From a virus, in the IMG/VR virus record IMGVR_UViG_3300050821_012719, positions 60,936 to 92,935 of that record: a stretch of DNA of 32,000 nt. The stretch is one strand, 5' to 3'. The number at the start of each line of letters is the position of its first letter. The stretch's first letter is position 1. The position numbers and the translations under genes were made by a program. The notes under the pieces were generated by a model. The model saw nothing but the letters and a program-made list of their open reading frames with translations. It searched no databases and had not been told where the DNA came from. Shown one piece after another: positions 9,206 through 31,488 of this stretch.

Positions 9206-9227
9206 CTCTCCAGGGGCGTGACTCTGC

Positions 9228-9272
9228 CTCCAAACGAAAGAGGGGCAACCTCAAGCACAAGAGGTCGCCCCT
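9228..9272 (-). terminator. rho-independent terminator (minus strand)
   Basis: Stem 9241..9252 pairs with 9261..9272. It is 12 bp with one position that is A.C on the plus strand but G.U on the minus strand. Loop is 8 nt. On the minus strand it is followed by CUUUCGUUUGG. Confidence 0.55.
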
Positions 9273-9408
9273 CCAACATCCGGGGGTACTACGTATAGTG
9301 GCCCGTCGTCAGGTTGCGTGCGCGAAGCCTTCCTCCCTGGTTGCGCACGTCCATGGCGGACCGTTGACGATGAACGAGCCCCCCGCCCCTGTCAATGTGT
9401 CCGGGTGT

Positions 9409-9756: not shown

Positions 9757-9757
9757 G

Positions 9758-10015
9758 TCAGCCCGTAGTATAGCCAGAGGCAATCGAAGCGAGGGTCTTG
9801 TCCTTCTCCGGGATGGCGTGGCTCAGACCATCCTTCGTCAGCTCGAGCGACTTGAAGAAGGCCTGCTTGCCCGCCTCGTTGATGGTGGCCTCGTCCTGGT
9901 TGCACGTGATGCGCACGACGCTGGAGACCTTCACTGCACCGTAGTCGAGACCGAACTGCGTGCTCATCTCGACCTGGGCCAAACCGTTGCCCAGGAGATT
10001 CTCGAAGCTGTCCAT
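9758..10015 (-). CDS. hypothetical protein (85 aa)
   Basis: Track ORF 9758..10081 trimmed to ATG 10015 (MDSFENLLGNGLAQVEM...), with AGAGGG upstream. No recognisable domain. Confidence 0.5.
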   Translation of the reverse strand: MDSFENLLGNGLAQVEMSTQFGLDYGAVKVSSVVRITCNQDEATINEAGKQAFFKSLELTKDGLSHAIPEKDKTLASIASGYTTG

Positions 10016-10077
10016 GTAGCCCTCTTCTTCGTGGTACGTGCCGTCGGTTCTGCTGACCCTTCTCCACCAGCGCGCGT

Positions 10078-10512
10078 TCACGGCAGCAGGTAGGGGTCCG
10101 GCTTCTTGTAGCGTAGCTCGAGGCGGATGCAGGCCTTCGAAACCTCTGCGGGGATCATGCCCGATTCGTGGTAGGCGAGCACGCGTGTACGGTCGACCTT
10201 GTAATCGATGACCTTCTCCGTGTAGCCGCCGAGGTTCAGGAACTGCTCCTCGCCGAGCTCCTCGAAGAGCTTCTCCGCGTTGATCTTGGTGGACTCGCTG
10301 AGCTTGACGAAGGGCCCGCAGGTCACGCCCATGTTGCGCACGCGTTGCTCGGCTGAGATGAGAAGCTCGTTGCGTTGAATCGCGAGCTTGGAGAACTTCT
10401 CGTAGAACTCCGGGTTGGAGGCGATGAGCTCTCGCAGCTCTCGTTCGACGCTCAACAGCATCATGACTTCTTCGACACCGCTGGGGTCCACAGACACAGC
10501 CTTCTCAGTCAT
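10078..10512 (-). CDS. hypothetical protein (144 aa)
   Basis: Track ORF trimmed to ATG 10512 (MTEKAVSV...), with GGAGG 6 nt upstream and an 8-nt overlap with the UDG gene. Helical, charged N-terminal half. No domain recognised. Confidence 0.65.
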   Translation of the reverse strand: MTEKAVSVDPSGVEEVMMLLSVERELRELIASNPEFYEKFSKLAIQRNELLISAEQRVRNMGVTCGPFVKLSESTKINAEKLFEELGEEQFLNLGGYTEKVIDYKVDRTRVLAYHESGMIPAEVSKACIRLELRYKKPDPYLLP

Positions 10513-11380
10513 TGAACTCCTCCTCTCCAACTTCCAGTTCTGCGTGGTACTGATTCATCTCTTCCTCGGAGAGATCTTCCAGTTCTTTGCTCTCTTCCGA
10601 CTTGGCTCCGACTTCGAGTTGATAGCGTTCGAAGATCTTGGCTGCCTTCTTGATGTCTGCAAAGAACTGGCGGAAGGGACTGGTCGGCCCCTTGTCGCTC
10701 AGCTTCCTGTCGACATAGGCCGGATGCAGCGTAGGGATGAGCAGATAGCGGACCTCGTTCTGCTCGACCGGTGCCACCATCTGGCCATGTGCCTTGCGCA
10801 GCCAGATCCCCTTCTTCTCGGTCATCTTCGCTCGGGAAGTGACTCCGGGGATAGTGATCTCTCTCTCCCTGCCTCTCTCTGTGGTGATGGTGACCGAGCC
10901 ACCAGTCAGAGCCTCGGCAGCCTTGCCGCCTAGACTCACGATGATGACCGGGTCCACCAGGTAGATCTCCTCGTAGAGGCGAGGCAGGCACTCCTTGATG
11001 TGCAGGGGGGACGGAGGTTCGTCCTTGTAGACGATCTCCGGAAGCTTCGTGCGTCGGTTGTTCCGCATCATGGGGGTGTTCGTGTTCTGGTCGATGAGAG
11101 GGGAGCACGAACGACACGCCACCACGTTCGTGATGTACGCGTCGTTGATGCCAAGCTTCTCCATGACCCCGCGAAGGATCTTGCCCGACCGCCCTACGAA
11201 GGGGCGACCCTCCCTCTCCTCGTTCTTGCCAGGCCCTTCGCCAACGAAGAGGATGCTGCGAGTCACACCCTCTCCGAAGACGAAGTGCCCGTTCACGTCG
11301 CTCCGGCGCTTCCCAAGCTCGCACCGGACGCAGTCCTGCCACGCATCGCGCAGGACGTTCAGCCGCCTGACTTCGTCCAT
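10505..11380 (-). CDS. family-4-type uracil-DNA glycosylase with acidic C-terminal extension (291 aa)
   Basis: CVRCELGKRR...VFGEGVTRSILFVGEGPGKNEEREGRPFVGRSGKIL (CxxC plus the GE(A/G)PG...G-PF-G motif), VVACRSC, IPTLHPAYV (HP[AS] motif). About 60 C-terminal residues are Glu-rich. Confidence 0.85.
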   Translation of the reverse strand: MDEVRRLNVLRDAWQDCVRCELGKRRSDVNGHFVFGEGVTRSILFVGEGPGKNEEREGRPFVGRSGKILRGVMEKLGINDAYITNVVACRSCSPLIDQNTNTPMMRNNRRTKLPEIVYKDEPPSPLHIKECLPRLYEEIYLVDPVIIVSLGGKAAEALTGGSVTITTERGREREITIPGVTSRAKMTEKKGIWLRKAHGQMVAPVEQNEVRYLLIPTLHPAYVDRKLSDKGPTSPFRQFFADIKKAAKIFERYQLEVGAKSEESKELEDLSEEEMNQYHAELEVGEEEFND

Positions 11381-12001
11381 CTATCTCCTGAAGGGAACGC
11401 CCGGACCTCCGAACCCAGCCCTCTTCATCGCCGCAGCCTCCATGGCGTGCTGGTGGGGCGAGACGATGCGCGGACCGGCCGGCACAGATCCCTGGGGCTC
11501 GTCACGCTGCACCACCGTGGTGCTCCGCGTGACGATGATGCCGTTGCTCACGAGCCCCTTATGCATCTCCTTGTCTGGTCCTTGCAGGTCCTCGAAGAAC
11601 ACGAACCTCGGAGCATACATGTAGTGCGGTACGCCCTGGCCGGTCATCTCGATGGGAAGGATCATCGGATGCTTGCTGAAGTCACCCTCCACTTCGGGGT
11701 TCGGCTTGAGCGCGATGAGGTACTCCCAGACCGGATTGAGCTCGATGTAGGCCGGCATGCTCATGAGAACGTGGTACTTGTCCGTCGGCTGGACGAAGTT
11801 CCCCTTGTCGACGATCTTGCTCACCCGGCCGATGTAGCGAAGGTTCCCGTCCGAAGCGGAGACCCAGACCCCTTCGCTCAGCAGCTTGTCCGCCTCTGCG
11901 GAGAGCTCTGTGCGGATGCGCTGGATCTCGTCCTGCCGTCTCTGCACCTCGTTCTGCATGTGCTCGAGTTCCTTCTGCTCTTCTTCGTGGCTCTTGCTCA
12001 T
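11381..12001 (-). CDS. hypothetical protein with N-terminal coiled coil (206 aa)
   Basis: ATGA overlap with the upstream helicase gene; its stop abuts the UDG ATG. Normal composition. No domain recognised. Confidence 0.7.
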   Translation of the reverse strand: MSKSHEEEQKELEHMQNEVQRRQDEIQRIRTELSAEADKLLSEGVWVSASDGNLRYIGRVSKIVDKGNFVQPTDKYHVLMSMPAYIELNPVWEYLIALKPNPEVEGDFSKHPMILPIEMTGQGVPHYMYAPRFVFFEDLQGPDKEMHKGLVSNGIIVTRSTTVVQRDEPQGSVPAGPRIVSPHQHAMEAAAMKRAGFGGPGVPFRR

Positions 12002-13713
12002 CGGAATCTCCTCGCGTCATCGGGATAGTTCGAGAACTCGTAGGTGTACGGCCCTCCATCTTCGAGGGGCCACTTTCGAAGATGGTGCCGGATCTTCTTG
12101 CACATCTCGATGATGACCTTGATGTTGTCCTCGAAGATGTGGAAGAGAGGGCTCTGCTTGTGTTGCTTGTGCCTCAGGGCACGGCCCATGATCTGCTGAA
12201 CCGCGCCCTTGGAGCTCGTCGGTTCGCAGAGCATTACTGTATCGATGGAGGGCTCGTCCAGGCCTTCCTTGCCGTACTTCATGATGGCGAAGGTGACGGC
12301 ACGCTCTTGAAGCAGACGAGTTCGTTCTGCCGTCGACACCTTGTGGATCATGAGCCCGGCATCGCTAGGCATCTCCAAAAGCTTAGTCCGGTAATCCTTC
12401 TGCTCTTTGTGGATGATCTTCAGCATGCGCTTGGCAGTGTCATGCCCGGCGATGGCGAGCTCGAGGTCTTCGATCTTCTGCATCACCTCCAGGGTGGTAG
12501 CCTTCGAGAGCCTTCCGCCCTGAAGAAGCAGGCGGTTCACTTCGAGGCTCTTCTCCATCATGTCGCGGTCATCCGACTCGATGAAGAGCGGAGGGGCCTC
12601 TCCTGGGAGAAGGGGAGGAAGGGGGATGTCCGTGTAGAGCGACTGGGCTCCGTTCCAGATGGCGAGCAAGTTGACCAGCTCGTCCACGGACTTCGAGAGC
12701 ACAAGGACCTTGCGTCCCTCGCGATGATACTGACGGACCTTGGTGATGATCGTCTGAAGGCGGTCCACCCAACGGCCGAACCAGACTGAGAGCATGCTGA
12801 GGTGCACGTCCCCTGACAGGGTGCATGTGCCGGCCACCACTTTTGGGTCGGACATGTCGAGTTCGAACCCTGTCCACTCGAAGATGATACGAGGCACCAG
12901 GTCTTGCTTCAGGTTCCGGTAGAACGACTGGCCGAAGTGGAACTCGTGGATGACGTGAAGTCCGTCATCACGCTTCGGAGTCGCCGTCAACCCGTAGCGA
13001 CGCTCGTAGATCAAGTCAGCGCTACGAGAGAAGGTGGGAGCGTTGACGTGGTGAGCCTCGTCGTAGAAGCCGACGCCGAACCAACGGCGGAAGCTCTCCG
13101 GCAGCTCGTGTGACTTCATCGCCAGTGTCTGATAGGTGGCTAGAACAATGGATCGACCTTCCCAGTCGAACTCCCCATCGCCGACCTGTCCCACGCCTCC
13201 AGGGACTTCGAGGAAACGCTCGATGGCGCGTAGCCACTGAGATAGCAGTTGCATGTTGTCGACGACGACGAGGGTTGGGACCTGGAGATGGGCGATCGCC
13301 TCGAGAGCGATGACTGTCTTACCCTTGCCGCAAGCGAGCTCCAAGATGCCGCTGCGGCTGCTGAGTAGTGCTGCGAGAGCATCTCGCTGCACAGTCTCTC
13401 CAGTAGGGACGAGAACGTCGTTCATCTCCTTGTGGTCCAGCAAGATGCGGCTCTTGATATTCGTCTTCTTGTAGCGACGTGGTCGACAATCGACGACGTC
13501 GAAGCCGAACTGCCCCTTCTTCCAGAACTCTCGGGGCACCACGAGGTGATTCAGCTCCTCCCGATAGAGAGGCAGCTCCGCCATCTCGCGGTCCTTGCCT
13601 TCGAGATAGGTGAACGTGAGGGCCTTCTTCACGCCCTCCACGTTCACCATGCTCTTGGGGACCCAGAGGTTGTCCGTCAGGTAGCCCTTGCTGGGGTCCG
13701 TTCCGATCTGCAT
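11998..13713 (-). CDS. SF2 DEAH-box helicase (Res-subunit/XPB-like, 571 aa)
   Basis: Motif I ELACGKGKT, motif II FYDEAHH, motif III GLTATP, followed by a C-terminal helicase domain. Confidence 0.9.
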   Translation of the reverse strand: MQIGTDPSKGYLTDNLWVPKSMVNVEGVKKALTFTYLEGKDREMAELPLYREELNHLVVPREFWKKGQFGFDVVDCRPRRYKKTNIKSRILLDHKEMNDVLVPTGETVQRDALAALLSSRSGILELACGKGKTVIALEAIAHLQVPTLVVVDNMQLLSQWLRAIERFLEVPGGVGQVGDGEFDWEGRSIVLATYQTLAMKSHELPESFRRWFGVGFYDEAHHVNAPTFSRSADLIYERRYGLTATPKRDDGLHVIHEFHFGQSFYRNLKQDLVPRIIFEWTGFELDMSDPKVVAGTCTLSGDVHLSMLSVWFGRWVDRLQTIITKVRQYHREGRKVLVLSKSVDELVNLLAIWNGAQSLYTDIPLPPLLPGEAPPLFIESDDRDMMEKSLEVNRLLLQGGRLSKATTLEVMQKIEDLELAIAGHDTAKRMLKIIHKEQKDYRTKLLEMPSDAGLMIHKVSTAERTRLLQERAVTFAIMKYGKEGLDEPSIDTVMLCEPTSSKGAVQQIMGRALRHKQHKQSPLFHIFEDNIKVIIEMCKKIRHHLRKWPLEDGGPYTYEFSNYPDDARRFR

Positions 13714-13914
13714 CTACCCTGACTCCGTTTGCAGCTCGTCGAGCCGCGCTTTGCAGGCCTTGATGATTGCTTGGTGCTTCTTGATCTTGGCGGTCAAGTC
13801 CTTGACCTCCTCCGCCAGATGCTCCGCACACCGGTTGCTTCGAAGAACTCGAGTCCCGCAGTCGACGAAGTCCGTGTGGTCCGGGACTCGTACCGTGCAT
13901 CCCTCTTTGCTCAT
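13714..13914 (-). CDS. small hypothetical protein (66 aa)
   Basis: ATGA overlap with the upstream gene; its stop abuts the helicase ATG. 4 Cys followed by a coiled-coil tail (EEVKDLTAKIKKHQAIIKACKARLDELQ). Confidence 0.5.
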   Translation of the reverse strand: MSKEGCTVRVPDHTDFVDCGTRVLRSNRCAEHLAEEVKDLTAKIKKHQAIIKACKARLDELQTESG

Positions 13915-14459
13915 TGCGGCTTCCTGATGAAGGGGACGGTATCGAAGAAGTGCGCGAGGGAGTGGCCGGCGGCTTTGAGCATGCCGCGCGTGACTTCTCT
14001 GGCGAGCGGAGCCCAGTACGACTCACCCTCTTGACGATGCTCGGACTCGGACAAGTATGACGGCATGTGATGCGAGACTGGCATCATCTCGATAGGGCGG
14101 ATCTGCATCGGCGCGTGCGGGTACTGATACGACACCTGCCCTTGCGGCGCCATCACCGTAGGCGTTGAAAGTTGGGTCGGTCGACCCGGGACGAATCCAT
14201 GTTGCTGGTACGGTACTGCTGGCTGAGGCATCCCGTAGGGCGGTCGGATGATCGATTGCGGTGGGATGAGTACCGGACGCTCGTTTGCCTTCTTCAGCGC
14301 GACTCTCGACCGGCACATGTCGAACAGCTCGCACTTGGCTCGGACCTTACTGCCGCCGTTCGGGCTGACGTAGCCGGGATCGTAGCCGCCCTTGCATTCG
14401 ATTGCGTTCGCATCCCAGAGCTGGCCGAAGCACTCCGGCGCTCCATTCGGTATGGTCAT
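13911..14459 (-). CDS. hypothetical Cys-motif / Pro-Gln-rich protein, first gene of the leftward replication unit (182 aa)
   Basis: Track ORF 13911..14645 trimmed to ATG 14459 (MTIPNGAPECFGQLWDANAIECKGGYDPGY...KCELFDMC), with AAGGAG 5 nt upstream. The discarded 62 aa overlap the divergent gene start. Confidence 0.6.
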   Translation of the reverse strand: MTIPNGAPECFGQLWDANAIECKGGYDPGYVSPNGGSKVRAKCELFDMCRSRVALKKANERPVLIPPQSIIRPPYGMPQPAVPYQQHGFVPGRPTQLSTPTVMAPQGQVSYQYPHAPMQIRPIEMMPVSHHMPSYLSESEHRQEGESYWAPLAREVTRGMLKAAGHSLAHFFDTVPFIRKPQ

Positions 14460-14482
14460 GACTCTCCTTGGAGTAGGGGGGA

Positions 14483-14516
14483 CCTCAGTGTTCTTTTTCC
14501 CGGGTTCCGTGGTACC
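14483..14516 (-). promoter_or_regulatory. conserved leftward element, copy A, inside the 82-bp divergent control region 14460..14541
   Basis: Minus strand 5'-GGTACCACGGAACCCGGGAAAAAGAACACTGAGG-3'. It ends 23 nt before ATG 14459. The same 82 bp must also hold the signals for the rightward unit that starts at 14542. Confidence 0.45.
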
Positions 14517-14541
14517 TTGCAGGGAGGTTCTGGAGGACTGC

Positions 14542-15102
14542 ATGGAGAAGCTCAGCGGGCTCATTCTGGACCTGTACGATGATTCTCGCGGAGAGATCTT
14601 GAAAGGTCTCTTCCCCGACCAGGGACAGATCCCCGACATCATCAAGCAGGCCCACTACCTCACGCAGAACGAGCGAGAAGCTCTACCGGACGACGTCTTC
14701 GCCCTCGTGCTGAGGGATCGAGACGTCGTCCTTCGCAAGTTCGCCTGCACCGATGCTGGTAACACGCTGGCTTCGATGCTCTACCTCATGAAGACGGCCT
14801 CGAAACTCCCACTGCCGGCGATCGAGCGTGCCCTCGAGAACCTGAAGGTCGCTTCGCGCTGGTACTGGAACACGGCCGAAGAGCTCGAGAAGTCGGCTGG
14901 CATCGGAGGTGCGATGCTCGGAGGGCTCGCCGGTCTGGGCAAGAACGTGGCTGGCTGGGCTGCGAAGAACCCGATGAAGGCCCTGACGACTGGCATGGGC
15001 GTCGCGAGCGGCATCGGCGCCGCGAAGCAGATCGGCTCGAACCTTCGAGGTGTGAGTGCGGCCGAACAAGCCGGTGGCGGTTTCGGCACTATCGTTCCGT
15101 GA
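14542..15102 (+). CDS. hypothetical protein with Gly-zipper-like C-terminus (186 aa)
   Basis: Track ORF 14392..15102 trimmed to ATG 14542 (MEKLSGLILDLYDD), with GGAGG 5 nt upstream. C-terminus GIGGAMLGGLAGLGKNVAGWAAKNPMKALTTGMGVASGIGAAK. Confidence 0.65.
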   Translation: MEKLSGLILDLYDDSRGEILKGLFPDQGQIPDIIKQAHYLTQNEREALPDDVFALVLRDRDVVLRKFACTDAGNTLASMLYLMKTASKLPLPAIERALENLKVASRWYWNTAEELEKSAGIGGAMLGGLAGLGKNVAGWAAKNPMKALTTGMGVASGIGAAKQIGSNLRGVSAAEQAGGGFGTIVP

Positions 15103-24216: not shown

Positions 24217-24794
24217 GTCACTCCTTGTCTCTCGTACCTCTTCCACCGGAGGTCAACGGTCTGGAGCCGAGTGTCGGGAGCGACACCCGTGTCTTGATCG
24301 AAGTCGAACAGTAGGACCAGGAACTCTCGGACATCAGCGTTCACCCGAATCATCCTGTCGATCTCGAACTCTGAGGGCAGAATCGGGGAGCCAGTCAACT
24401 GCTCTTGCTGGTACCGGAGCTCGGACTCTCGTGTGTACAGGTCATCTCGGAGGTCCTCTTCGTCCATGAAGAAGCCCATCCAGCCGCGATCGTAGGGGTC
24501 CACGTAGTCACTCCCCAACCACCGGCAGTACTCGCCGGGATTCGCGAAGCCGAGCAACAGCTCTAGGTCTCGCTGGTTGATGAACGAGTGGACCCCCTTC
24601 TGATCTACCACTCGAGCGCGGATACCTCCGAGCGCTCGCCCCCAGATGGGGGAGTAAAGTCCATCGATGGTCCACTCACGTCTGGTCTCGTGAGGGTCCC
24701 CCACCCTCACGCCGACCAAGCCGAATGTCTCGCCGAGAAGCCTACCCCCGATAACCCCCAAGCGCCCACGTTCCAGTGACGGGTGCACGATCAT
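24201..24794 (-). CDS. hypothetical protein (197 aa)
   Basis: ATG 24794 with AGGAG upstream (long spacer). Normal composition (…GVHSFINQRDLELLLGFANPGEYCRWLGSDYVDPYDRGWMGFFMDEEDL…). No domain recognised. Confidence 0.6.
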   Translation of the reverse strand: MIVHPSLERGRLGVIGGRLLGETFGLVGVRVGDPHETRREWTIDGLYSPIWGRALGGIRARVVDQKGVHSFINQRDLELLLGFANPGEYCRWLGSDYVDPYDRGWMGFFMDEEDLRDDLYTRESELRYQQEQLTGSPILPSEFEIDRMIRVNADVREFLVLLFDFDQDTGVAPDTRLQTVDLRWKRYERQGVTWHQL

Positions 24795-24869
24795 GTCGCA
24801 ATCGTTCTCCTAGCCAGGTCATGAAGCCCCGAATGATTCCTATGAGCACCGCCGAGAGAAAAAACTCGA

Positions 24870-24998
24870 TCATTCGCTGTCCTCGTCCTTCTTCTCGTCT
24901 TCTTCCTCGTCGGTTTGACCGCGATACATCCGGTCAACGTGCCGCTCGAACTCGCGTCCGCTGTTCTCGTCTTCGTCCTTGGTCTTCGGTCCAGGCAT
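24870..24998 (-). CDS. unlisted 42-aa highly acidic micro-ORF, first ORF of the leftward cassette
   Basis: Hand translation gives MPGPKTKDEDENSGREFERHVDRMYRGQTDEEEDEKKDEDSE*. GAGGAA lies 4 nt upstream of the ATG. Third codon positions are almost all G/C, like the confirmed genes. It is below the size cut-off of the supplied track. Confidence 0.4.
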   Translation of the reverse strand: MPGPKTKDEDENSGREFERHVDRMYRGQTDEEEDEKKDEDSE

Positions 24999-25028
24999 GT
25001 TTTCCTCTGATGCGGGACGTGTGCGTCT

Positions 25029-25060
25029 GCTCCAGTACTCTTTTCCCCGTCTTTAGGTAG
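25029..25060 (-). promoter_or_regulatory. conserved leftward element, copy B, inside the 94-bp divergent region 24999..25092
   Basis: Minus strand 5'-CTACCTAAAGACGGGGAAAAGAGTACTGGAGC-3'. It ends 30 nt before ATG 24998. The same region precedes the rightward RNAP gene. Confidence 0.45.
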
Positions 25061-25092
25061 GCTTTGCTAAGCTCTGCTGCTGAGATCTACCG

Positions 25093-28000
25093 ATGGCCTA
25101 CCTCGACCCGACCGATGCCTACCATCACCTCCGGGACCGGACGCTGGAGGGTCTCCACTACCTGTTCGAGTCGCCCATCAAGGGCAAGGCACGGTCCCTC
25201 TCGTTGACCAAGCTCGAGGTGGAAGATCCTCTGCGGGTGGACGACATCCGAGGACAGCAGCGCGCCAAGATGAACGGCGAGACCTGGGGAGCTCAGGTCT
25301 TCGGCACCCTCGAGATGAAGGACAACCTGACGGGCGCCGTCGTCGACACGAAGCGCATCCGCCTGACGGACATCCCCAAGACCACTCGACGTTACAGCTA
25401 CATCGTCAGCGGTCAGGAGTACCAGGTCGACAACCAGTGGCAGCTCAAGCCTGGCGTCTACGTTCGTCGCAAGGCGAACGGAGATCTCGAGGCCCGCTTC
25501 AACGTGACTGGTCGTGTCGGGCAGCTCAACGCCATCTTCGACCCCGCCAGCAAGCTGTTCAAGGTCGAGTACCGCAAGTCCAAGGGCTCTCCTCTCTACC
25601 CCTTCTTGAAGGCCATGGGAGTCGGAGACGACGAGCTCGAGAAGACCTGGGGCAAGGAGATCTTCGAAGCGAACAAGAACGCACCCCGCAGTGCCGGTGC
25701 CGTCGAGTCCTTCTACAAGACCAACACCGGTCAGGTCGCTCCCTCACATCAGGCGGCGGTTCAGCATCTGCACGAGATCTTCCTGGACGCCAAGATGCGC
25801 CCCGAGGTCAATGAGGTCACTCTCGGTAAGCCGGTCGAGCACATCAGCGGAGAGGCCCTGCATCTGGCCACCAAGAAGCTGCTCGATGTGCAGCGAGGCG
25901 CTCCCGAAGATGACCGAGACAACTTGGTCTTCAAGGACCTGCGGTCAGCCGGTGACTTCGCCTACGAGCGCCTGCGCGGGTCGAAGAGAACCATCATCCA
26001 GAAGCTCCAGCGGCAGCTCAACAGCACGAAGACGATGGGCGTTCGTGACGCTGTGCGCTTCGACTACTTCAACGAGCCGGTCAAGCAGCTCTTCACCAAG
26101 ACCTCTATCGCCAACCCGGCGACGCAGATCAACCCCCTTCAGATGGTCTCGACTGCTATGCAGACGACCATCATGGGGCCTGGTGGCATCAAGAGCGAGA
26201 GGAGCATCACCGAAGAGGCGAAGATGATCAATCCTTCGCATCTCGGATTCCTCGATCCCATCAACACGCCGGAGAGCGACAAGACCGGCGTGACGTTGCG
26301 TCTGCCGATGGGGATGAAGAAGAAGGGTACGGAGGCCACGATCGCGGCCTACAACCTGAAGACCGGCAAGTTCGACGACCTGTCTCCCAGCCTCTTTCTC
26401 AAGAGCAACGTGGTTCTTCCCGACCAGGTCGACTGGAAGTCTGGCAAGCCCGTACCCATCTCCGCGAAGGTGAAGATGGTGGCCGAACACAACCGCATCG
26501 AGGAACGGGGCTTCGGCGAGGCCGACTACGTTCTGCGTCACCCCAGTCAGCTCTTCAACGTCACGTCGAACCTCATCCCCTTCTTGCCCAACGACTCTGG
26601 TGGTCGCGCCGGCATGGCCAGCCGCCACATGGAGCAGGCTATCTCGCTGGTGCATCGCCAAGCACCGCTGGTCCAGGTGGCCGCCCCCACGGTTCCAGGT
26701 AGCGGCATCGACAGCTTCGAACAGCTCCTCGGCCACCAGACATCGCATCGAGCCCCGGCAGCCGGTACGGTCACCAAGATCAAGAAGGACGCCATCATCA
26801 TCGATGGCTCCGATGGCCAAGAGCACGAGGTGCAGATCTACCACAACTACCCGCTCAACGACGTCAAGAGCGTGATGCACTCTTCTCCACTCGTGAGGGT
26901 GGGTGACAAGGTCCATCGAGGCCAGGTCATCGCTGACACGAACTACTCGAAGGACGGCACGCTCGCTCTCGGTACGAACCTCCGTGTCGCCTACGTTCCC
27001 TTCAAGGGGTACAACTTCGAGGACGGCATCGTCATCAGCGACGAGGCAGCGAGGAAGCTCTCGAGCGTCCATCTGCACAAGCCATTGCTGAAGATCGAGG
27101 CCAACACCATCCTCGACCCCAGGAAGTTCTCGGTCCTCCATCCCGGGGTCTTCAAGTCCGACCAGTACGACAAGCTGGACGAGAACGGGGTCGTGCGCAT
27201 CGGTCAGAAGGTCAAGCCAGGTGATCCGCTCGTGGTCGCGATGCGTCCCTTCGAGCTCAAGGACCGCTCCGGTCTGACCGCGATGCGCAAGGCGCTCAAG
27301 GCACACCACAGCGACAACTCGGTCCGTTGGGACAGCGACTTCGAAGGCGAGGTCGTTGCTGTGCACAAGACGCCAGAGAAGGTCACCGTCCACGTCAAGA
27401 CGGTCGAGCCGATGCAGGTGGGCGACAAGCTCTCCGGCCGCCACGGCAACAAGGGCATCGTCACCAAGATCTTGTCGAACGACGAGATGCCCAGAAGCAA
27501 GACCGGCGGTCCCATCGATGTGCTGCTGAACCCGAGTGGTGTGCCAGGACGCATGAACGTGGGGCAGGTCCTCGAGACCGCTGCTGCGAAGATTGCTCAG
27601 AAGACAGGCAGGACGTATCTCGTCGACAACTTCGACCCCAAGATCACCGATGCGCTCACTCGAGTGAAGGACGAGCTCAAGAAGCACGGCATCTCTGACA
27701 CCGAGGAGCTCATCGACCCAGTGTCCCATCAGCCTCTCGGGCCGGCGCTCGTCGGACCGCAGTACATGCTGAAGCTTGTGCACCAGGTCGAGAAGAAGTT
27801 GTCGGTGCGCAGCGGCATGAGCTTGCCGGGTCTGCCCGATGCAGAGCCCTACGACACGAATCTCCAGCCTGGTGGTGGTGGGCACGCTGGAGGGCAGAGC
27901 CTGAGCCATCTGGCCCTCTACGCGATGCTGGCGCACGGCGCGAAGGCCAACGTGCGGGAGATGTCGACGTGGAAGGCTGAGGGCAGAGACCCCGAGCAGA

Positions 28001-31000
28001 ACGAGGCGAAGCGTTGGCCGTCGCAGCACATCGAGGTCTGGAAGGCCATTCAAGAGGGCACGCCTCTGCCTCCTCCGAAGACGACCTTCGCCTTCAAGAA
28101 GTTCACCGACATGCTCAAGGGGGCGGGCATCAACGTCGAGAAGCAGGGGCACCAGTTCGTGCTTGGTCCGCTCACAGACAAGCAGATCATCGACATGTCG
28201 AGTGGGGAACTCACTCAGGCGGATAAGTCGCCTGTGCGTGCCAAGACGGACAAGTCCGGCGAGTTCATCGTGATGCCTGGTGGTCTCTTCGACGAGAGGA
28301 TCACCGGTGGTCATGGTGGAACGAAGTGGGCGCATCTGCGTCTGGCCGAGCCAGTGCCGAACCCGGTCTTCGAAAGTGCCATCAAGAAGCTGACGGGTCT
28401 GAAGGAGCAGCAGTTCGACTCCATCATGACGGGAGACGTCGGAGTCGACCCAGGTACCGGCAAGATCGTGTCTTCGAAGTTGGGGGTCACAGGCGGCGCA
28501 GGCATCAAGGCGTTGCTCGACCGCATCGACGTGAAGCGTGACCTCGAGGCTGCGAAGAAAGAGCTCACGAAGACCCCTCTTTCGAAGGCGGACAAGGTCC
28601 TCAAGAGAGTGAAGTACCTCACTTCGCTCCAGCGTCTCGACCTGAAGCCGAGCGACGCGTACATCCTGCACAACATTCCGATCGTGCCTCCAGTCATCCG
28701 TCCGCTCACGATGATGGCGGATGGGGGTCTGAAGTACGAAGACATCAACGGGCTCTACAAGCAGTTCGAGACGATCAACAACCGCCTCAAGGACCCGGTC
28801 CTGTCCACCAACCTGACGGACCGCAAGAAGAAGGAGCTGCGCGATGCCTACTACGATGGCGTGAAGGCCATCATGGGTGTCGGGACGGTGAACAAGGACA
28901 AGAAGGAGAAGGGCCTGCTCGATCAGATTGCCGGCATCTCTCCCAAGGAAGGCTACTTCCAGAGCGTCCTGACCAACCGTCGTCAAGACCTCACGATGCG
29001 GTCGACGATCGTGCCCGAGCCCTCTCTCGGTCTCGACGAAGTCGGTCTGCCTCGTGATGCTGCGCTCACCCTCTTCCGCCCGTTCGTCATCCGCCAGCTC
29101 GTTCTTCAGGGTACGGCTCCTACGGCCATACAGGCCACCGCCGTCTTGTCGAAGGTGCACAAGGGGCAGGACGATCCCATGGTCTGGCGTGCGCTCGAGC
29201 ACGTGATGAACGAACGCCCCGTGCTGCTGAAGAGGGACCCGTCTCTGCACAAGTACTCGGTGCAAGCGTTCAAGCCCCGTGTCGTAATGGGCAACGCCAT
29301 CCAGATCCACCCGCTCGTGACCGGGGGATTCAACGCCGACTTCGACGGAGACACGATGGCCGTGTACGTGCCCATCAGCCATGAGGCCGTGCGCGAAGCC
29401 CAGAAGATGTTCCCCTCGAACAACGTCTTCAACGAGGCCTCAGGCCACGTGATGTACCAGCCCACCCTCGAGAGCGCCCTCGGCCTCTACAAGCTCTCGA
29501 TGGTGGGCAAGAAGACCAACGCCTCCTTCGCGACCGACCAAGAAGCCGTGGAAGCCCTGCATCAGGGCAAGGTCCATCACACCGACATCGTGAGCGTGGG
29601 AGGCAAGACCACTACGCCAGGACGTGTGCTGCTGGCCTCCGTCCTGCCTGATGACTTGCACAAGCAGGTCCTGCACGATCTGGACTTCCGAGTCGACAAG
29701 AACGGCCTCAAGTCCATTCTCACCCAGGTCGGCAAGAAGAACGCCGGTGCGTTTGGACGCATCGCTGACGACATCAAGAACCTCGGCTACGACGCCTCGT
29801 TCGGCGTCGTGAAGACGTCTCTCGCCAAGGGGGGCAACGTCGCCATCGGAACACACTCCCTCTCCCTCGATGACTTCACCACCGATCGCGGGACTCGTGA
29901 TGGGCTGCTTCGAACAGCACGCGAGAAGGTGAATGGCATCACCGCAAACCCTCGCCTGAGTCAGTCGGAGAAAGACCGCCAGTCGGTCAACGTCTGGGTC
30001 GATGCCTCCGACGAGATGATGAAGGAGCACCGTCGGAAGGCGGAGGATTCCCCGTCGAACCTCTACCTGATGGCTCGCGCTGGCGTGAAGCCGGACTGGA
30101 ACCAGTACAAGCAGATGGTGCTGGCCCCCATGATCTACAAGGACTCGTTCGACCGGGACATCCCGACAGCCGTCACCAAGAGCTACTCCGAAGGGCTCGA
30201 TCTTGGTGGATACTGGACGCAACTCTACGGCGCACGTCGAGGCGCCGTCATGAAGGTCCAAGAGGTTCAAGAGCCTGGCGCCCTCTCGAAGCTGCTCTTG
30301 AACACAACGATGAACATGCTCGTGGAGAAGCCCGACTGCGGAACCAAGAAGGGCGTGGCCCTGCTGGCTAGCGACCCGGATGTGCATGACAGACATCTGG
30401 CGCAGGCGTTCCACATCGGGCATCTGCATGTTCCTGAAGGCACGCTGCTGACGCCCGACATCGTCGGGCAGATCCGCTCGGCCGACAAGAACGCCAAGCT
30501 CCTGGTTCGCAGCCCACTCAAGTGTGAGGCGGAACACGGCCTCTGTCAGAAGTGCATCGGCCCATCTGTCGAAGGTCAGAACTACGAGCTCGGGACGAAC
30601 ATCGGCGTCATCTCCGCGCAGGCCGTCGGAGAGCGTGCGATGCAGCTCATGCTCAAGGGGTTCCACACCGGCGGTGTCCGTGAGGCTGGTGGCGGGTCGA
30701 AGATCGTGAACCAGTTCGACCGGTTCAAGCAGCTCACGACACTACCTACCAAGATCCCCAATGCAGCGACGGTGGCGATGACCAGTGGACGCATCGAGCG
30801 CATCGTGCCAACAGAGACCGGAGTGGACATCTGGATCAACGGCACCCGTCACTTCGTGGGAAGGGACCCGGCAGGTAACGCACTCCACATGCCGCTAACC
30901 GGTGCGAACCGAGATGCCCGTTCCATCCCCTTCTCGGCCTCAAAGATCGGAGACCACGTCGAAGCGGGTACGATGCTCAGCGACCCGAATCGCACGTCCG

Positions 31001-31488
31001 TCAACCCTCATGACCTGTACCGTGCGACGGGCAGCATCGACGAGGTCCAGAATCAGATCACCGGAGAGATGGACCGCATCTACAACTCCAGCGGACCGAC
31101 GGTGCGCAGGCGCATGCTCGAGACCCTCGTGAAGGCGATGAGCAACCTCACCAAGGTCGAAGACCCTGGAGACCACCAGTACATCATGCGCGGCGAGTTC
31201 CACCCGACGTCGGTGGTCAAGAAGCTCAACGAAACGGAGCTGAAGGGCAAGATGCCCATCCTCCACCGTCCGGTACTTCAAGGCGTGGACGTTCTTCCGC
31301 TATCCTTGCAAGAAGACTGGATGGCGAAGATGCAGCACGCCAAGCTCAAGGACACGCTCTACGAGGCCGCAGCGCAGGGTCTCGTCTCCAAGATCCACGG
31401 ACCACACCCCGTTCCCGGTGTCGCGTACGGCGCCGAGTTCGGGCTCCCTCCGCGAGAGGGCAAGAACGTCCAGCCCTTCCACTACTGA
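25093..31488 (+). CDS. single-chain multisubunit-type RNA polymerase: fused beta (about aa 1-1020) and beta-prime (about aa 1021-2131) modules
   Basis: Beta blocks: NPLQMVSTAMQTTIMGPGGIKSERS, HLGFLDPINTPESDKTGV, PFLPNDSGGRAGMASRHMEQA, LALGTNLRVAYVPFKGYNFEDGIVIS, GRHGNKG (27436..27456), LNPSGVPGRMNVGQVLE, YMLKLVHQVEKK. Beta-prime blocks: WAHLRLAEPVPNPVF, IVPPVIRPL, RRQDLTMRSTIVPEPSLGLDEVGLP, PVLLKRDPSLHKYSVQAFKP, NADFDGD (29332..29352), YGARRGAVMKVQEVQEPGALSKLL, and the Zn site DCGT...CEAEHGLCQKC. An in-frame TGA 12 nt upstream fixes the start. Confidence 0.93.
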   Translation: MAYLDPTDAYHHLRDRTLEGLHYLFESPIKGKARSLSLTKLEVEDPLRVDDIRGQQRAKMNGETWGAQVFGTLEMKDNLTGAVVDTKRIRLTDIPKTTRRYSYIVSGQEYQVDNQWQLKPGVYVRRKANGDLEARFNVTGRVGQLNAIFDPASKLFKVEYRKSKGSPLYPFLKAMGVGDDELEKTWGKEIFEANKNAPRSAGAVESFYKTNTGQVAPSHQAAVQHLHEIFLDAKMRPEVNEVTLGKPVEHISGEALHLATKKLLDVQRGAPEDDRDNLVFKDLRSAGDFAYERLRGSKRTIIQKLQRQLNSTKTMGVRDAVRFDYFNEPVKQLFTKTSIANPATQINPLQMVSTAMQTTIMGPGGIKSERSITEEAKMINPSHLGFLDPINTPESDKTGVTLRLPMGMKKKGTEATIAAYNLKTGKFDDLSPSLFLKSNVVLPDQVDWKSGKPVPISAKVKMVAEHNRIEERGFGEADYVLRHPSQLFNVTSNLIPFLPNDSGGRAGMASRHMEQAISLVHRQAPLVQVAAPTVPGSGIDSFEQLLGHQTSHRAPAAGTVTKIKKDAIIIDGSDGQEHEVQIYHNYPLNDVKSVMHSSPLVRVGDKVHRGQVIADTNYSKDGTLALGTNLRVAYVPFKGYNFEDGIVISDEAARKLSSVHLHKPLLKIEANTILDPRKFSVLHPGVFKSDQYDKLDENGVVRIGQKVKPGDPLVVAMRPFELKDRSGLTAMRKALKAHHSDNSVRWDSDFEGEVVAVHKTPEKVTVHVKTVEPMQVGDKLSGRHGNKGIVTKILSNDEMPRSKTGGPIDVLLNPSGVPGRMNVGQVLETAAAKIAQKTGRTYLVDNFDPKITDALTRVKDELKKHGISDTEELIDPVSHQPLGPALVGPQYMLKLVHQVEKKLSVRSGMSLPGLPDAEPYDTNLQPGGGGHAGGQSLSHLALYAMLAHGAKANVREMSTWKAEGRDPEQNEAKRWPSQHIEVWKAIQEGTPLPPPKTTFAFKKFTDMLKGAGINVEKQGHQFVLGPLTDKQIIDMSSGELTQADKSPVRAKTDKSGEFIVMPGGLFDERITGGHGGTKWAHLRLAEPVPNPVFESAIKKLTGLKEQQFDSIMTGDVGVDPGTGKIVSSKLGVTGGAGIKALLDRIDVKRDLEAAKKELTKTPLSKADKVLKRVKYLTSLQRLDLKPSDAYILHNIPIVPPVIRPLTMMADGGLKYEDINGLYKQFETINNRLKDPVLSTNLTDRKKKELRDAYYDGVKAIMGVGTVNKDKKEKGLLDQIAGISPKEGYFQSVLTNRRQDLTMRSTIVPEPSLGLDEVGLPRDAALTLFRPFVIRQLVLQGTAPTAIQATAVLSKVHKGQDDPMVWRALEHVMNERPVLLKRDPSLHKYSVQAFKPRVVMGNAIQIHPLVTGGFNADFDGDTMAVYVPISHEAVREAQKMFPSNNVFNEASGHVMYQPTLESALGLYKLSMVGKKTNASFATDQEAVEALHQGKVHHTDIVSVGGKTTTPGRVLLASVLPDDLHKQVLHDLDFRVDKNGLKSILTQVGKKNAGAFGRIADDIKNLGYDASFGVVKTSLAKGGNVAIGTHSLSLDDFTTDRGTRDGLLRTAREKVNGITANPRLSQSEKDRQSVNVWVDASDEMMKEHRRKAEDSPSNLYLMARAGVKPDWNQYKQMVLAPMIYKDSFDRDIPTAVTKSYSEGLDLGGYWTQLYGARRGAVMKVQEVQEPGALSKLLLNTTMNMLVEKPDCGTKKGVALLASDPDVHDRHLAQAFHIGHLHVPEGTLLTPDIVGQIRSADKNAKLLVRSPLKCEAEHGLCQKCIGPSVEGQNYELGTNIGVISAQAVGERAMQLMLKGFHTGGVREAGGGSKIVNQFDRFKQLTTLPTKIPNAATVAMTSGRIERIVPTETGVDIWINGTRHFVGRDPAGNALHMPLTGANRDARSIPFSASKIGDHVEAGTMLSDPNRTSVNPHDLYRATGSIDEVQNQITGEMDRIYNSSGPTVRRRMLETLVKAMSNLTKVEDPGDHQYIMRGEFHPTSVVKKLNETELKGKMPILHRPVLQGVDVLPLSLQEDWMAKMQHAKLKDTLYEAAAQGLVSKIHGPHPVPGVAYGAEFGLPPREGKNVQPFHY

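What the first reader, a model, noticed from the sequence alone, without database searches (positions are those of the whole stretch)
25093..31488. One 2131-aa phage ORF fuses complete RNA polymerase beta and beta-prime modules
Seen: a single uninterrupted frame runs from ATG 25093 to the stop at 31486..31488, and an in-frame TGA lies at 25081. It carries the beta signature blocks in their canonical order, including GRHGNKG at 27436..27456. Around 28140..28200 (…GAGINVEKQGHQFVLGPLTDKQIIDMSSGEL…) it continues with no stop or frame change into the beta-prime blocks. These include the catalytic NADFDGD at 29332..29352, a bridge-helix-like YGARRGAVMKV…, the second Zn site (C1749, C1811, C1818, C1821) and the C-terminal LSLQEDW…EAAAQG block. 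Established: bacteria normally encode rpoB and rpoC separately, with natural fusions known in Helicobacter and Wolbachia. Jumbo phages such as phiKZ and AR9 carry beta/beta-prime split into more pieces. YonO and the crAss-like virion RNAPs are far more divergent single-chain two-barrel enzymes. E. coli beta plus beta-prime total 1342 + 1407 aa, so this enzyme is much more compact. Inference: this looks like a minimal, canonical-motif, single-polypeptide msRNAP in a small or medium phage replication context. No alpha, omega or sigma gene is visible in this window.
Basis: partly seen in the sequence, partly recalled or inferred. Interest (0 to 1): 0.92.

Follow-up and report, generated by a model that had tools for sequence, protein, structure and literature searches.

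The report
Single-chain bacterial-type RNA polymerase of large phages
One 2131-residue phage gene encodes both large subunits of a bacterial-type RNA polymerase joined end to end; this layout is real, shared by hundreds of uncultured ~190-kb phages, and I found no paper that describes it.

Summary
ORF 25093..31488 (+) encodes 2131 aa with a near-complete beta module (residues 1-1016) running straight into a beta-prime module (1022-2131).

It is not an assembly artefact:
- More than 250 homologue clusters (39-100% identity) and 71 IMG/VR loci keep the same single frame.
- The junction sequence is conserved.
- The junction is modelled with high confidence as a tight beta-hairpin.

The interpretation needs correcting:
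- The phage is not small or medium. Relatives sit on 185-199 kb contigs.
- The gene lies in the head/packaging block (portal upstream, terminase and capsid genes downstream), not the replication module.
- "Compactness" mostly reflects absence of E. coli-specific insertions, plus loss of the beta-prime N-terminal zinc ribbon.
- The beta/beta-prime junction is not unique. Cultured relatives (Salmonella phage Arash, Vibrio phages D69/D148/D181) share it but split the enzyme into 2-3 pieces further downstream.

Most likely function is the phage's own transcriptase. It is possibly virion-packaged, because the Arash homologue dominated virion proteomics. It is probably sigma-directed, because relatives encode a sigma70-family protein and I found clade-specific -35/-10 type promoter motifs. 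Neither point is shown for this phage.

The parts
25093..31488 (+). Fused beta/beta-prime RNA polymerase gene (2131 aa plus stop)
   Evidence: ORF and translation. Pfam Rpb2 and Rpb1 domains. Bacterial beta-prime and beta are the best PDB matches. GC3 = 0.82.
25093..28140 (+). Beta module, residues 1-1016. Collinear with bacterial beta, without E. coli insertions beta-i4 and beta-i9.
   Evidence: Query 56-256, 258-740 and 764-1016 align to Eco beta 83-297, 427-907 and 1050-1338. Query 57-972 aligns to cyanobacterial beta 70-1021. The module ends with GINVE, matching Eco GINIE 1334-1338.
27436..27456 (+). Beta catalytic-barrel motif GRHGNKG
   Evidence: Conserved as GR.GNKG across the fused family. 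It is an intein hot-spot in homologues.
28141..28155 (+). Fusion junction, five residues KQGHQ (1017-1021) between the last beta strand and the first beta-prime strand
   Evidence: In the family alignment with E. coli, the chain is about 18 residues shorter than the concatenated Eco termini, so no linker was added. AlphaFold2 models a beta-hairpin with block pLDDT 86-94.
28156..31485 (+). Beta-prime module, residues 1022-2131. Collinear with short bacterial beta-prime, without SI3.
   Evidence: Query 1134-2097 aligns to C. difficile beta-prime 171-1125. Query 1133-1895 and 1952-2103 align to Eco 180-974 and 1200-1346. The N-terminal strand FVLGPLTDKQ aligns to Eco beta-prime at about residue 20.
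28306..28323 (+). GGHGGT turn that replaces the beta-prime N-terminal zinc ribbon (Eco about 65-99, C70/C72/C85/C88)
   Evidence: Alignment: the ribbon is deleted in all aligned fused homologues shown and in Arash and D69. The protein has no cysteines outside the Zn2 site.
28684..28950 (+). Beta-prime lid, clamp helices and rudder region (residues 1198-1286). Present but divergent. In bacteria this is the sigma region-2 docking surface.
   Evidence: Alignment to Eco beta-prime 245-335.
29332..29352 (+). Catalytic Mg-binding loop NADFDGD
   Evidence: Invariant in the fused family. Arash and D69 have AADYDGD, which keeps the Asp triad.
30211..30303 (+). Bridge helix (residues 1707-1737)
   Evidence: Alignment to Eco beta-prime 769-805 and family conservation.
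30337..30555 (+). Second zinc site (C1749, C1811, C1818, C1821)
   Evidence: Aligns with Eco C814/C888/C895/C898.
30592..30747 (+). Trigger loop, both halves contiguous (no SI3 insertion)
   Evidence: It is an intein hot-spot at FHTGG in homologues.
25033..25067 (-). Clade-conserved bipartite promoter-like element facing away from the RNAP gene (GCAAAG, 16 nt, GAAAAGAGT). It heads the leftward block 20260..24998. The region is back-to-back with the RNAP start.
17453..19555 (+). Portal protein gene, same strand, 5.5 kb upstream. Portal-RNAP linkage is conserved across the lineage.
   Evidence: 30% identity to Arash gp204, E = 7e-86. Found upstream of the RNAP in nearly all loci.

Best explanation
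The ORF encodes the catalytic core of a bacterial-type (two-barrel, multisubunit-class) DNA-dependent RNA polymerase as one polypeptide. A near-complete beta module is fused head-to-tail, without a linker, to a beta-prime module that has lost only its N-terminal zinc ribbon.

It is the transcriptase of an uncultured tailed phage with a genome of about 185-200 kb. That phage belongs to a large clade whose nearest cultured relatives are Salmonella phage Arash and Vibrio phages D69/D148/D181.

Shown:
- One real gene, with an intact catalytic kit.
- A single ancestral beta/beta-prime junction shared by the whole lineage.
- A location inside the head/packaging gene block.

Inferred, about 0.5 each:
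(a) The enzyme is made late, packaged into the capsid and injected with the DNA. This would make early transcription independent of host RNAP, as proposed for Arash.
(b) Promoter choice comes from a phage sigma70-family factor docking on the retained clamp helices. It would read clade-specific bipartite promoters such as TGCAAR-N16/17-GATAAGA, two copies of which head the leftward operons of this window.

Fusion would replace the assembly role that the alpha dimer plays in bacteria.
For: One real gene:
- Same single frame in 120 of the 120 best protein clusters, 150 of the 150 best 50%-identity representatives spanning the junction and 71 IMG/VR loci.
- Conserved junction. High-pLDDT hairpin. 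Codon-position GC.

Enzyme identity and integrity:
- Pfam, PDB sequence matches, E. coli mapping, motif conservation, Foldseek top hits all bacterial beta-prime.

Phage and lineage:
- Portal, terminase and capsid homology to Arash.
- Contig sizes. Absent from GTDB genomes except one 2-kb fragment.

Virion hypothesis:
- In Arash virion mass spectrometry the beta+beta-prime-N protein gp206 had the most spectra (3516). Beta-prime-C gp216 (1210) and sigma gp10 (467) were also detected (PMC10585845).
- The gene lies between portal and terminase/capsid genes on the same strand.

Sigma hypothesis:
- Arash gp10 matches Sigma70_r3 above threshold and is conserved at 44% identity and the same map position in three Vibrio phages.
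- Clamp helices are retained.
- Two promoter-like classes show fixed sigma70-type spacing. Leftward composite: 66 hits against 7 in shuffles, 41 of 66 at one spacing. Rightward TTGC-N18-TACNCT upstream of the RNAP gene: 18 of 52 loci against 1.4 expected.
- Matches to the host sigma70 consensus are at chance level.
Against: - No sigma-like gene was found in the window, within 10 kb of the RNAP in 71 loci, or in about 45 kb walked downstream on a 195.6-kb relative. Sigma use by the fully fused branch is therefore unproven.
- The Arash virion preparation yielded 116 proteins, including ribonucleotide reductases and ligases. Its authors themselves allow carry-over of abundant non-structural proteins.
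- The beta flap tip, which docks sigma region 4 in bacteria, is shortened and poorly conserved.
- The promoter motif is not enriched in the sampled Arash regions, so motif, sigma and RNAP are not yet tied together.
- Nothing here tests activity. Alpha and omega equivalents could be encoded outside the window.
Confidence: 0.75

Rival explanations
1. Assembly or sequencing artefact: two adjacent genes (rpoB-like and rpoC-like) were merged by a frameshift or a lost stop codon.
For: None was found. It is only the generic prior that bacteria and most phages encode beta and beta-prime separately (for example all mReC entries listed).
Against: Independent assemblies from JGI, ENA, NCBI and Logan give the same fused frame in more than 250 clusters down to 39% identity and in 71 IMG/VR loci. 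The junction is shorter than two separate termini and is conserved. Cultured, finished genomes (Arash, D69) have the same junction inside one annotated CDS.
Confidence: 0.01
2. A non-virion polymerase. Host RNAP transcribes early genes, including this gene. The fused enzyme then takes over middle and late transcription, like T7 RNAP or the phiKZ non-virion RNAP, and is not packaged.
For: The RNAP gene has its own sigma70-geometry promoter-like element in 18 of 52 loci. The Arash authors note that abundant infection-phase enzymes may contaminate virion preparations. Only one RNAP set per genome is seen in Arash and the Vibrio phages, whereas phiKZ-type phages with a virion RNAP carry a second, non-virion set (PMC7598289).
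Against: The Arash homologue was the top protein by spectral count in virions, and the sigma was detected too. The gene is embedded among portal, terminase and capsid genes. The window has no excess of host-consensus promoters.
Confidence: 0.3
3. A recently captured bacterial rpoB-rpoC, possibly from a host with a natural fusion, carried as an auxiliary or decoy gene rather than as the phage's own transcription engine.
For: Its closest solved relatives are bacterial, not phiKZ/AR9 enzymes.
Against: It is only 26-30% identical to every bacterial lineage tested, and no lineage stands out: Thermus, Clostridia, Actinobacteria, Proteobacteria and Cyanobacteria. The clade is deep (39% internal identity) and monophyletic with Arash and Vibrio phages relative to E. 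coli. It is absent from 185,579 GTDB species genomes except a 2-kb MAG fragment. The zinc-ribbon loss is shared across the lineage.
Confidence: 0.03
4. A catalytically dead, structural or regulatory derivative of RNAP.
For: None.
Against: The Asp triad, GR(H)GNKG, bridge helix, trigger loop and Zn2 site are all conserved across the family. Inteins target exactly these motifs, as expected for essential active sites.
Confidence: 0.02

Closest known systems
Bacterial RNA polymerase core subunits beta (RpoB) and beta-prime (RpoC)
   Same: Collinear over almost the full length of both subunits. Same catalytic motifs, bridge helix, trigger loop, Zn2 site, clamp helices and flap.
   Different: One chain instead of two. 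Only 26-30% identity. Lacks the beta-prime N-terminal zinc ribbon and all E. coli lineage-specific insertions. The flap tip is shortened. No alpha or omega gene was seen in the window.
RNAP of Salmonella phage Arash (gp206 + gp216) and Vibrio phages D69/D148/D181
   Same: Same lineage (portal, terminase and capsid are homologous). Same beta/beta-prime-N junction sequence and the same zinc-ribbon deletion. 34% identity.
   Different: There the enzyme is in 2 pieces, split at about query residue 1508, or in 3 pieces in D181, with a homing endonuclease gene in the extra gap. The catalytic loop is AADYDGD rather than NADFDGD. These records annotate the genes as 'subunit beta' or 'hypothetical protein'. 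The Arash paper does not mention a fusion in the passages retrieved.
Natural RpoB-RpoC fusions of Helicobacter and Wolbachia, and engineered E. coli beta-beta-prime fusions (own knowledge, not tested here)
   Same: Same order, beta then beta-prime. This exploits the proximity of the beta C-terminus and the beta-prime N-terminus in the clamp.
   Different: Those are cellular enzymes that still assemble with alpha2 and omega and keep the zinc ribbon. No specific relationship to them was seen among the best matches, but it was not tested directly.
Split multisubunit RNAPs of jumbo phages (phiKZ, AR9)
   Same: Phage-encoded members of the two-barrel superfamily. A virion-packaged form exists (PMC7598289, PMC7824862).
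   Different: Those are split into 4-5 polypeptides and are sigma-independent with a phage-specific extra subunit. They are far more divergent: the AR9 chain 7s00_C matches at only E = 4.7e-17 over about 65 residues, against 1.5e-79 for bacterial beta.
mReC: multisubunit-RNAP-encoding Caudovirales (Weinheimer and Aylward 2020, PMC7481178)
   Same: Metagenomic tailed phages with bacterial-like, deep-branching beta and beta-prime that are recognisable by standard profiles.
   Different: All listed mReC entries have separate beta and beta-prime genes of about 900-1400 aa. They have T4-type capsid (PF07068) and terminase (PF03237) genes. Here the terminase is GpA_ATPase type. None of the six IMG metagenome IDs I searched for gave a shared contig; the one shared ID (3300017963) lists a different contig with separate beta and beta-prime genes.
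Single-chain two-barrel RNAPs: YonO, crAss-like virion RNAP, P23-45 tape-measure-fused RNAP
   Same: Both barrels in one polypeptide, phage-encoded, and some are virion-delivered (PMC10770324, PMC7481178).
   Different: Those are so divergent that standard beta and beta-prime profiles do not detect them. This enzyme matches Pfam Rpb1 and Rpb2 domains and bacterial subunits end to end.

Membership tests
Two-barrel multisubunit-class RNAP, bacterial beta/beta-prime type | Beta-type double-psi barrel region with the conserved GxxGxKG lysine motif | tested here: met
   Rpb2_6 1.2e-59. GRHGNKG at residues 782-788, conserved in the family.
Two-barrel multisubunit-class RNAP, bacterial beta/beta-prime type | Beta-prime barrel with the NADFDGD Mg-binding triad | tested here: met
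   Rpb1_2 4e-30. NADFDGD at residues 1414-1420, invariant in the fused family.
Two-barrel multisubunit-class RNAP, bacterial beta/beta-prime type | Bridge helix, trigger loop and second zinc site | tested here: met
   Alignment to E. coli and family conservation. Rpb1_5 2.1e-15.
Two-barrel multisubunit-class RNAP, bacterial beta/beta-prime type | Beta-prime N-terminal zinc ribbon (Cys4) | tested here: not met
   Replaced by GGHGGT. There are no cysteines outside Zn2.
Two-barrel multisubunit-class RNAP, bacterial beta/beta-prime type | Assembly with an alpha dimer and omega; initiation with sigma | tested here: inconclusive
   No alpha, omega or sigma was found in the window or nearby. A sigma70-family gene is present in the cultured relatives. 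Whole genomes of the fused clade could not be read.
Two-barrel multisubunit-class RNAP, bacterial beta/beta-prime type | Template-dependent RNA synthesis | not testable with these tools
   Requires biochemistry.
Arash-like phage RNAP lineage | Shared beta/beta-prime-N junction and zinc-ribbon deletion, with homologous portal, terminase and capsid genes | tested here: met
Arash-like phage RNAP lineage | Beta-prime C-terminal third encoded by a separate gene | tested here: not met
   It is continuous here. Arash gp216 aligns from nt 29614, about residue 1508, within the same frame.
phiKZ/AR9-type jumbo-phage RNAP | Beta and beta-prime each split into two or more polypeptides, with closest similarity to other jumbo-phage subunits | tested here: not met
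   Single chain. The AR9 subunit is a weak, partial match (E = 4.7e-17) compared with bacterial beta. PHROG matches to annotated phage 'RNA polymerase beta subunit' families are weak (1e-27 or worse), against 4e-98 and 3e-77 for two unannotated PHROG families.
mReC (PMC7481178) | Separate beta and beta-prime genes, T4-type MCP (PF07068) and Terminase_6 (PF03237) | tested here: not met
   The gene is fused. The terminase is GpA_ATPase PF05876. The capsid protein matches phrog_2522 and Arash gp226; it was not scanned against Pfam. All mReC entries listed have two genes.
crAss-like / YonO single-chain RNAPs | No detectable similarity to standard beta and beta-prime profiles | tested here: not met
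   Strong Pfam and PDB sequence matches.
Helicobacter/Wolbachia-type RpoBC fusion | Beta C-terminus joined to beta-prime N-terminus in one ORF | tested here: met
Helicobacter/Wolbachia-type RpoBC fusion | Common descent with those cellular fusions | not tested
   No Helicobacter or Wolbachia sequence was compared. The best bacterial matches come from many phyla with similar scores.

The most novel reading that the evidence does not exclude
This clade carries a self-contained, capsid-delivered transcription machine. In this reading a single 2131-residue chain does the work of bacterial alpha2-beta-beta-prime-omega, is injected with the genome, and initiates at clade-specific bipartite promoters (TGCAAR-N16/17-GATAAGA) with at most one small phage factor. 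The one-, two- and three-piece versions seen in relatives would then show live how homing endonucleases and inteins fragment RNAP genes, which would be a plausible route to the highly split jumbo-phage polymerases.
Probability: 0.3. Interest if true: 0.85.

Novelty: new variant of a known kind. Interest (0 to 1): 0.68.

Why it matters
A canonical, bacterial-like RNAP core that folds from one gene would be the simplest natural form of a multisubunit-class polymerase.
- It would be attractive for structural work, for asking what alpha and omega are really needed for, and as an orthogonal single-gene transcription module.
- The clade is large: at least 150 clusters at 50% identity, on ~190-kb genomes from many metagenomes. 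It has cultured cousins in Salmonella and Vibrio, so the predictions are testable now.
- The side-by-side fused, 2-piece and 3-piece versions, plus intein hot-spots on every catalytic motif, give a natural series for studying fission and fusion of RNAP genes.
- The newly seen promoter motifs give concrete templates for in-vitro tests.

Tried and rejected
1. Near-identical DNA in GenBank phages: none.
2. Look-up of the exact protein's contig: not on record, so I used the 79% and 60% relatives instead.
3. Membership in the published mReC set: rejected. All listed entries have separate genes and a different head module.
4. 'Moraphages' (PMC12619734): they lack RNAP genes and are irrelevant. Vibrio-phage papers: irrelevant.
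5. Literature searches for a described phage beta-beta-prime fusion: nothing found. This is absence of evidence within the held library only.
6. Finding a sigma in the fully fused clade failed by every route tried:
- tblastn and custom HMMs on all loci.
- Word-indexed search with Arash gp10, which reached only close relatives.
- A profile search that found 333 sigma-like proteins on 150-182 kb contigs, with no demonstrable co-occurrence. An apparent contig-length match (13,666 bp) was a coincidence.
- Three walking steps (about 45 kb) along a 195.6-kb contig.
7. Using the promoter motif to link sigma-bearing contigs or Arash to the clade: no enrichment.
8. My first reading of the conserved boxes as a tripartite promoter of the RNAP gene was wrong. 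Boxes A and B are the -10 and -35 of a leftward promoter-like element.
9. ORF 24776..25060 (+), upstream of the RNAP: spurious. The real gene there is a 42-aa ORF on the other strand.
10. Polarity of the second junction (fusion or fission): not resolvable from a sister-group NJ topology.

Full report
**Observation.** The window contains a single ORF, 25093..31488 on the + strand, 2131 codons, ATG start, with an in-frame TGA 12 nt upstream. Those four are the only cysteines in the protein. Pfam finds Rpb2 domains 3 and 6 in the first half and Rpb1 domains 2 and 5 in the second, plus a sub-threshold Rpb1 domain 1 match. The best solved-structure matches are bacterial beta-prime (E = 8e-101) and bacterial beta (E = 1.5e-79), each covered almost end to end.

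**A real single gene.**
- The frame has GC3 = 0.82, like most of the window's other genes checked. The 1145-aa antisense ORF inside it is a mirror-image shadow.
- In a 5.8-billion-protein database, the 120 best clusters (54-100% identity; sources JGI, ENA, NCBI, Logan) are almost all full-length at about 2120-2170 aa, or longer through insertions.
- In an exhaustive HMMER scan with a junction-spanning segment, all 150 best 50%-identity representatives cover the junction, down to 39% identity.
- IMG/VR holds 71 distinct loci. At least 52 of the loci I hold (IMG/VR plus two ENA/NCBI relatives) have one open frame of 2060-2220 aa.
- The junction is conserved in sequence.
- An AlphaFold2 model of residues 560-1530 (mean pLDDT 77.6, pTM 0.60) places the junction in one of its most confident regions as a beta-hairpin. 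Foldseek returns bacterial beta-prime chains as top hits.

An assembly frameshift is excluded for practical purposes.

**Anatomy.**
- Against E. coli, query 56-256, 258-740 and 764-1016 align to beta 83-297, 427-907 and 1050-1338. Query 1133-1895 and 1952-2103 align to beta-prime 180-974 and 1200-1346.
- The 'missing' residues are therefore the proteobacterial insertions beta-i4, beta-i9 and SI3.
- Compared with the smallest solved bacterial subunits (beta 1100 aa, beta-prime 1161 aa), the enzyme is only about 130 aa shorter.
- The beta module ends with GINVE (Eco GINIE 1334-1338). Five residues (KQGHQ) later the chain is already in the first beta-prime strand (FVLGPLTDKQIIDMSSGE, against Eco IKIALASPDMIRSWSFGE). 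That is about 18 residues shorter than the two E. coli termini laid end to end, so there is no linker.
- The beta-prime zinc ribbon (Eco about 65-99) is replaced by GGHGGT in every aligned member shown.
- GR(H)GNKG, NADFDGD, the F-loop and bridge helix, the Zn2 site and an SI3-less trigger loop are conserved across the family.
- The clamp helices are present but divergent. The flap tip is shortened and poorly conserved.

**Genome and lineage.**
- The left part of the window (603..14459, minus strand) is a replication operon: Cas4-like nuclease, UvsX/RecA-like protein, family A polymerase, primase, DnaB, an exonuclease-like ORF and a helicase.
- ORF 17453..19555 is the portal protein (30% identity to Arash gp204, E = 7e-86). 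A portal gene lies upstream of the RNAP gene in nearly all loci.
- In relatives at 79% and 60% identity, the RNAP gene is followed by unannotated genes, a GpA-type large terminase about 6 kb on, and a major head protein about 15-16 kb beyond the RNAP gene's end.
- Many contigs carrying the gene cluster at 185-199 kb. The identical protein is on a 148-kb contig. This is a large phage, not a small or medium one.
- GTDB species genomes hold only one 2-kb MAG fragment. It is neither a bacterial gene nor a common prophage gene.

**Fusion states.**
- The nearest records in GenBank phages are Vibrio phages D69/D148/D181 (187 kb) and Salmonella phage Arash (181 kb), at 31-34% identity.
- Arash gp206 (1525 aa) and D69_0261 (1527 aa) contain beta plus beta-prime up to about query residue 1508. 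The rest is a separate gene: gp216, or D69_0264 at 609 aa.
- D181 is nearly identical to D69 in this region but has three pieces (514, 1006 and 609 aa), with a homing endonuclease gene exactly in the extra gap.
- These phages share the junction sequence and the zinc-ribbon deletion. In an NJ tree rooted on E. coli they form the sister group of the fully fused clade.
- The beta/beta-prime-N fusion therefore predates the whole lineage. Whether the second junction was ancestrally fused cannot be decided. The D69/D181 contrast shows that fission by mobile endonucleases is ongoing.
- 85 of about 270 retrieved homologue sequences carry in-frame insertions of 140-765 aa at a few hot-spots on catalytic motifs: after NADFDGD (n = 50), trigger loop FHTGG (25), GRHGNKG (18), DPINTPES (13). 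The junctions resemble intein splice sites...(H/S)N|T, with several starting in Cys or Ser. The window's copy is intein-free.

**How it probably works.** That it is a DNA-dependent RNAP follows from the intact catalytic kit and established knowledge of the family. Three further points are inference.

1. *Virion delivery.*
- In Arash, gp206 gave the most spectra of any protein in purified virions (3516). gp216 (1210) and the sigma-like gp10 (467) were also present. The authors note the alternative of carry-over (PMC10585845).
- The position of the gene among portal, terminase and capsid genes fits late expression and packaging.

2. *Sigma dependence.*
- Arash gp10 is a sigma70-family protein (Sigma70_r3 35.7 bits against a cut-off of 25.3). 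It is conserved at 44% identity and the same map position in the three Vibrio phages.
- For the fully fused branch I could not find a sigma despite several approaches. This remains open.

3. *Promoters.*
- Upstream of the RNAP gene, intergenic DNA is unexpectedly conserved across relatives.
- It resolves into a leftward bipartite element: (T)GCAA(A/G), 16-17 nt, G(G/T/C)ATAAGA(A), nnnTG, followed by an SD and the start codon of a leftward gene.
- PWM hits number 89 against 18 in shuffles, with an 83:6 strand bias. Composite hits number 66 against 7, with 41 of 66 at one spacing.
- The window has two copies: 25067->25033 and 14521->14486. Each heads one of the two leftward gene blocks.
- A second, rightward class (TTG[CT]NN-N18-TAC(G/C/T)CT) lies 5-30 nt before the RNAP start codon in 18 of 52 loci, against 1.4 expected.
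- Both classes have sigma70-type geometry but non-consensus boxes. Host-consensus matches in the window are at chance.
- Conservation of these boxes across phages with 40-60% protein identity suggests a co-inherited specificity factor. The polymerase that reads them has not been identified.

**Comparison with known systems.**
- It works like, and by sequence belongs to, the bacterial-type beta/beta-prime superfamily, minus the zinc ribbon.
- It is not a phiKZ/AR9-type enzyme (weak partial matches only).
- It is not in the published mReC set (separate genes and a different head module).
- It is not a crAss/YonO-type divergent single-chain enzyme, because those escape standard profiles.
- Its beta-then-beta-prime order is that of Helicobacter and Wolbachia RpoBC (own knowledge). 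Relatedness to those was not tested.

**Novelty.**
[quoted passage not shown] A cultured cousin has been published.
- I found no paper in the searchable library that notes or analyses a fused canonical phage RNAP. I checked reviews of jumbo-phage RNAPs up to 2026.
- I therefore rate it a new variant of a known kind.

**Limits.**
- No activity, virion or transcript data exist for this clade.
- The sigma question is open.
- The tree is a simple NJ tree with one outgroup.
- The promoter elements are statistical, not mapped transcription start sites.

Noticed in passing
window 25033-25067 (-) and 14486-14521 (-); 89 sites in loci L003-L075: A clade-conserved bipartite promoter-like element: (T)GCAA(A/G), 16-17 nt, GGATAAGA(A), nnnTG, followed by an SD and ATG of a leftward gene. 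PWM hits are 89 against 18 in shuffles, with an 83:6 strand bias. The window and its 79% relative L003 share the -10 variant AAAAGA. The two window copies head the replication operon and the MoxR/VWA block.
   Followed up: yes
upstream of the RNAP start in 18 of 52 loci (e.g. L009 9930-9975, L041 9950-9995); window 25065-25073 TGCTAAGCT: A second, rightward promoter-like class, TTG[CT]NN-N18-TAC(G/C/T)CT, lies 5-30 nt before the RNAP start codon (18 loci against 1.4 expected; spacer 18 in 15 of 18). The window itself lacks the -35 box and has only an extended -10-like TGCTAAGCT.
   Followed up: partly
homologues P0041, P0063-65, P0073, P0102, P0104 and others (sites given in query residues): 85 of about 270 retrieved homologue sequences carry in-frame intein-like insertions (140-765 aa). 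The hot-spots are residues 394, 632, 784 (GRHGNKG), 1421 (after NADFDGD, n = 50) and 1858 (trigger loop, n = 25), with a few at 967, 1071, 1284 and 1823. Inserts after NADFDGD end in (H/S)N followed by Thr. Some carry LAGLIDADG_3. Proteins reach 4739 aa.
   Followed up: partly
L077 (Vibrio phage D181) 2878-10860 versus L002 (D69) 3878-10929: The same RNAP is in 3 pieces in D181 (514, 1006 and 609 aa), with a homing endonuclease gene (205 aa) exactly in the extra gap. It is in 2 pieces in the close relative D69. This is ongoing gene fission by a mobile endonuclease.
   Followed up: partly
window 19556-19630 (-) and 19719-19786 (-): Two tRNA genes just downstream of the portal gene, both above Rfam's tRNA threshold (49.3 and 43.9 bits). 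ARAGORN's anticodon calls are odd (ATA 'Tyr' and a 2-base anticodon). The first could be read as CAT.
   Followed up: partly
window 24870-24998 (-): A 42-aa highly acidic ORF (MPGPKTKDEDENSGREFERHVDRMYRGQTDEEEDEKKDEDSE) with a GAGG ribosome-binding site. It is the first gene after the leftward promoter element, and a 45-aa gene is called at the same place in L003. The overlapping 94-aa + ORF 24776..25060 is spurious.
   Followed up: partly
window 13911-14459 (-) and 14542-15102 (+): Gene starts need correcting. The leftward ORF listed as 13911..14645 (TTG) most likely starts at ATG 14459 (SD AAGGAGAG, 182 aa), downstream of the promoter element. A rightward 186-aa gene starts at ATG 14542 (RBS GGAGG) and heads the block that contains the portal gene.
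   Followed up: yes
window 21075-22274 (-) and 22271-23851 (-): A DUF2201 (metallopeptidase-like plus VWA-like) protein lies next to a 525-aa ATPase (PHROG 'ATPase' family 1.2e-38; a weak, sub-threshold Pfam AAA_5 match here, with AAA_5 also called on the counterpart genes in relatives). The pair is inserted on the opposite strand between the portal and RNAP genes and is conserved in relatives L003 and L004.
   Followed up: no
window 3524-5491 (-) and 10505-11380 (-): The family A DNA polymerase appears to be in two genes 5 kb apart. The 655-aa ORF matches the polymerase part of phrog_17 (positions 651-1233). A 291-aa ORF matches positions 480-653, an exonuclease-like region.
   Followed up: no
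L003 70-3474; also L020, L039, L044-L048, L060, L063-L065, L067, L073: In several relatives the portal gene is interrupted: the tblastn match comes in two blocks about 1.2-1.3 kb apart. In L003 it is called as a 1134-aa product with a faint LAGLIDADG_3 hit, suggesting inteins or intervening elements in the portal gene too.
   Followed up: no
L085-L089 (contigs of 170-182 kb): A large family (333 hits) of 230-295-aa sigma70-like proteins lies directly after a protein of about 445-990 aa and a few genes upstream of a Baseplate_J gene, similar to Arash gp8-gp10. A sigma gene embedded among virion structural genes is unusual. Linkage to the fused-RNAP clade is not shown.
   Followed up: partly
window 25945-29382 (-) and 16733-19780 (-): Very long antisense 'ORFs' (1145 and 1015 aa) lie opposite the RNAP and portal genes. 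Their codon-position GC (GC1 above GC3) marks them as shadows of high-GC3 genes.
   Followed up: yes
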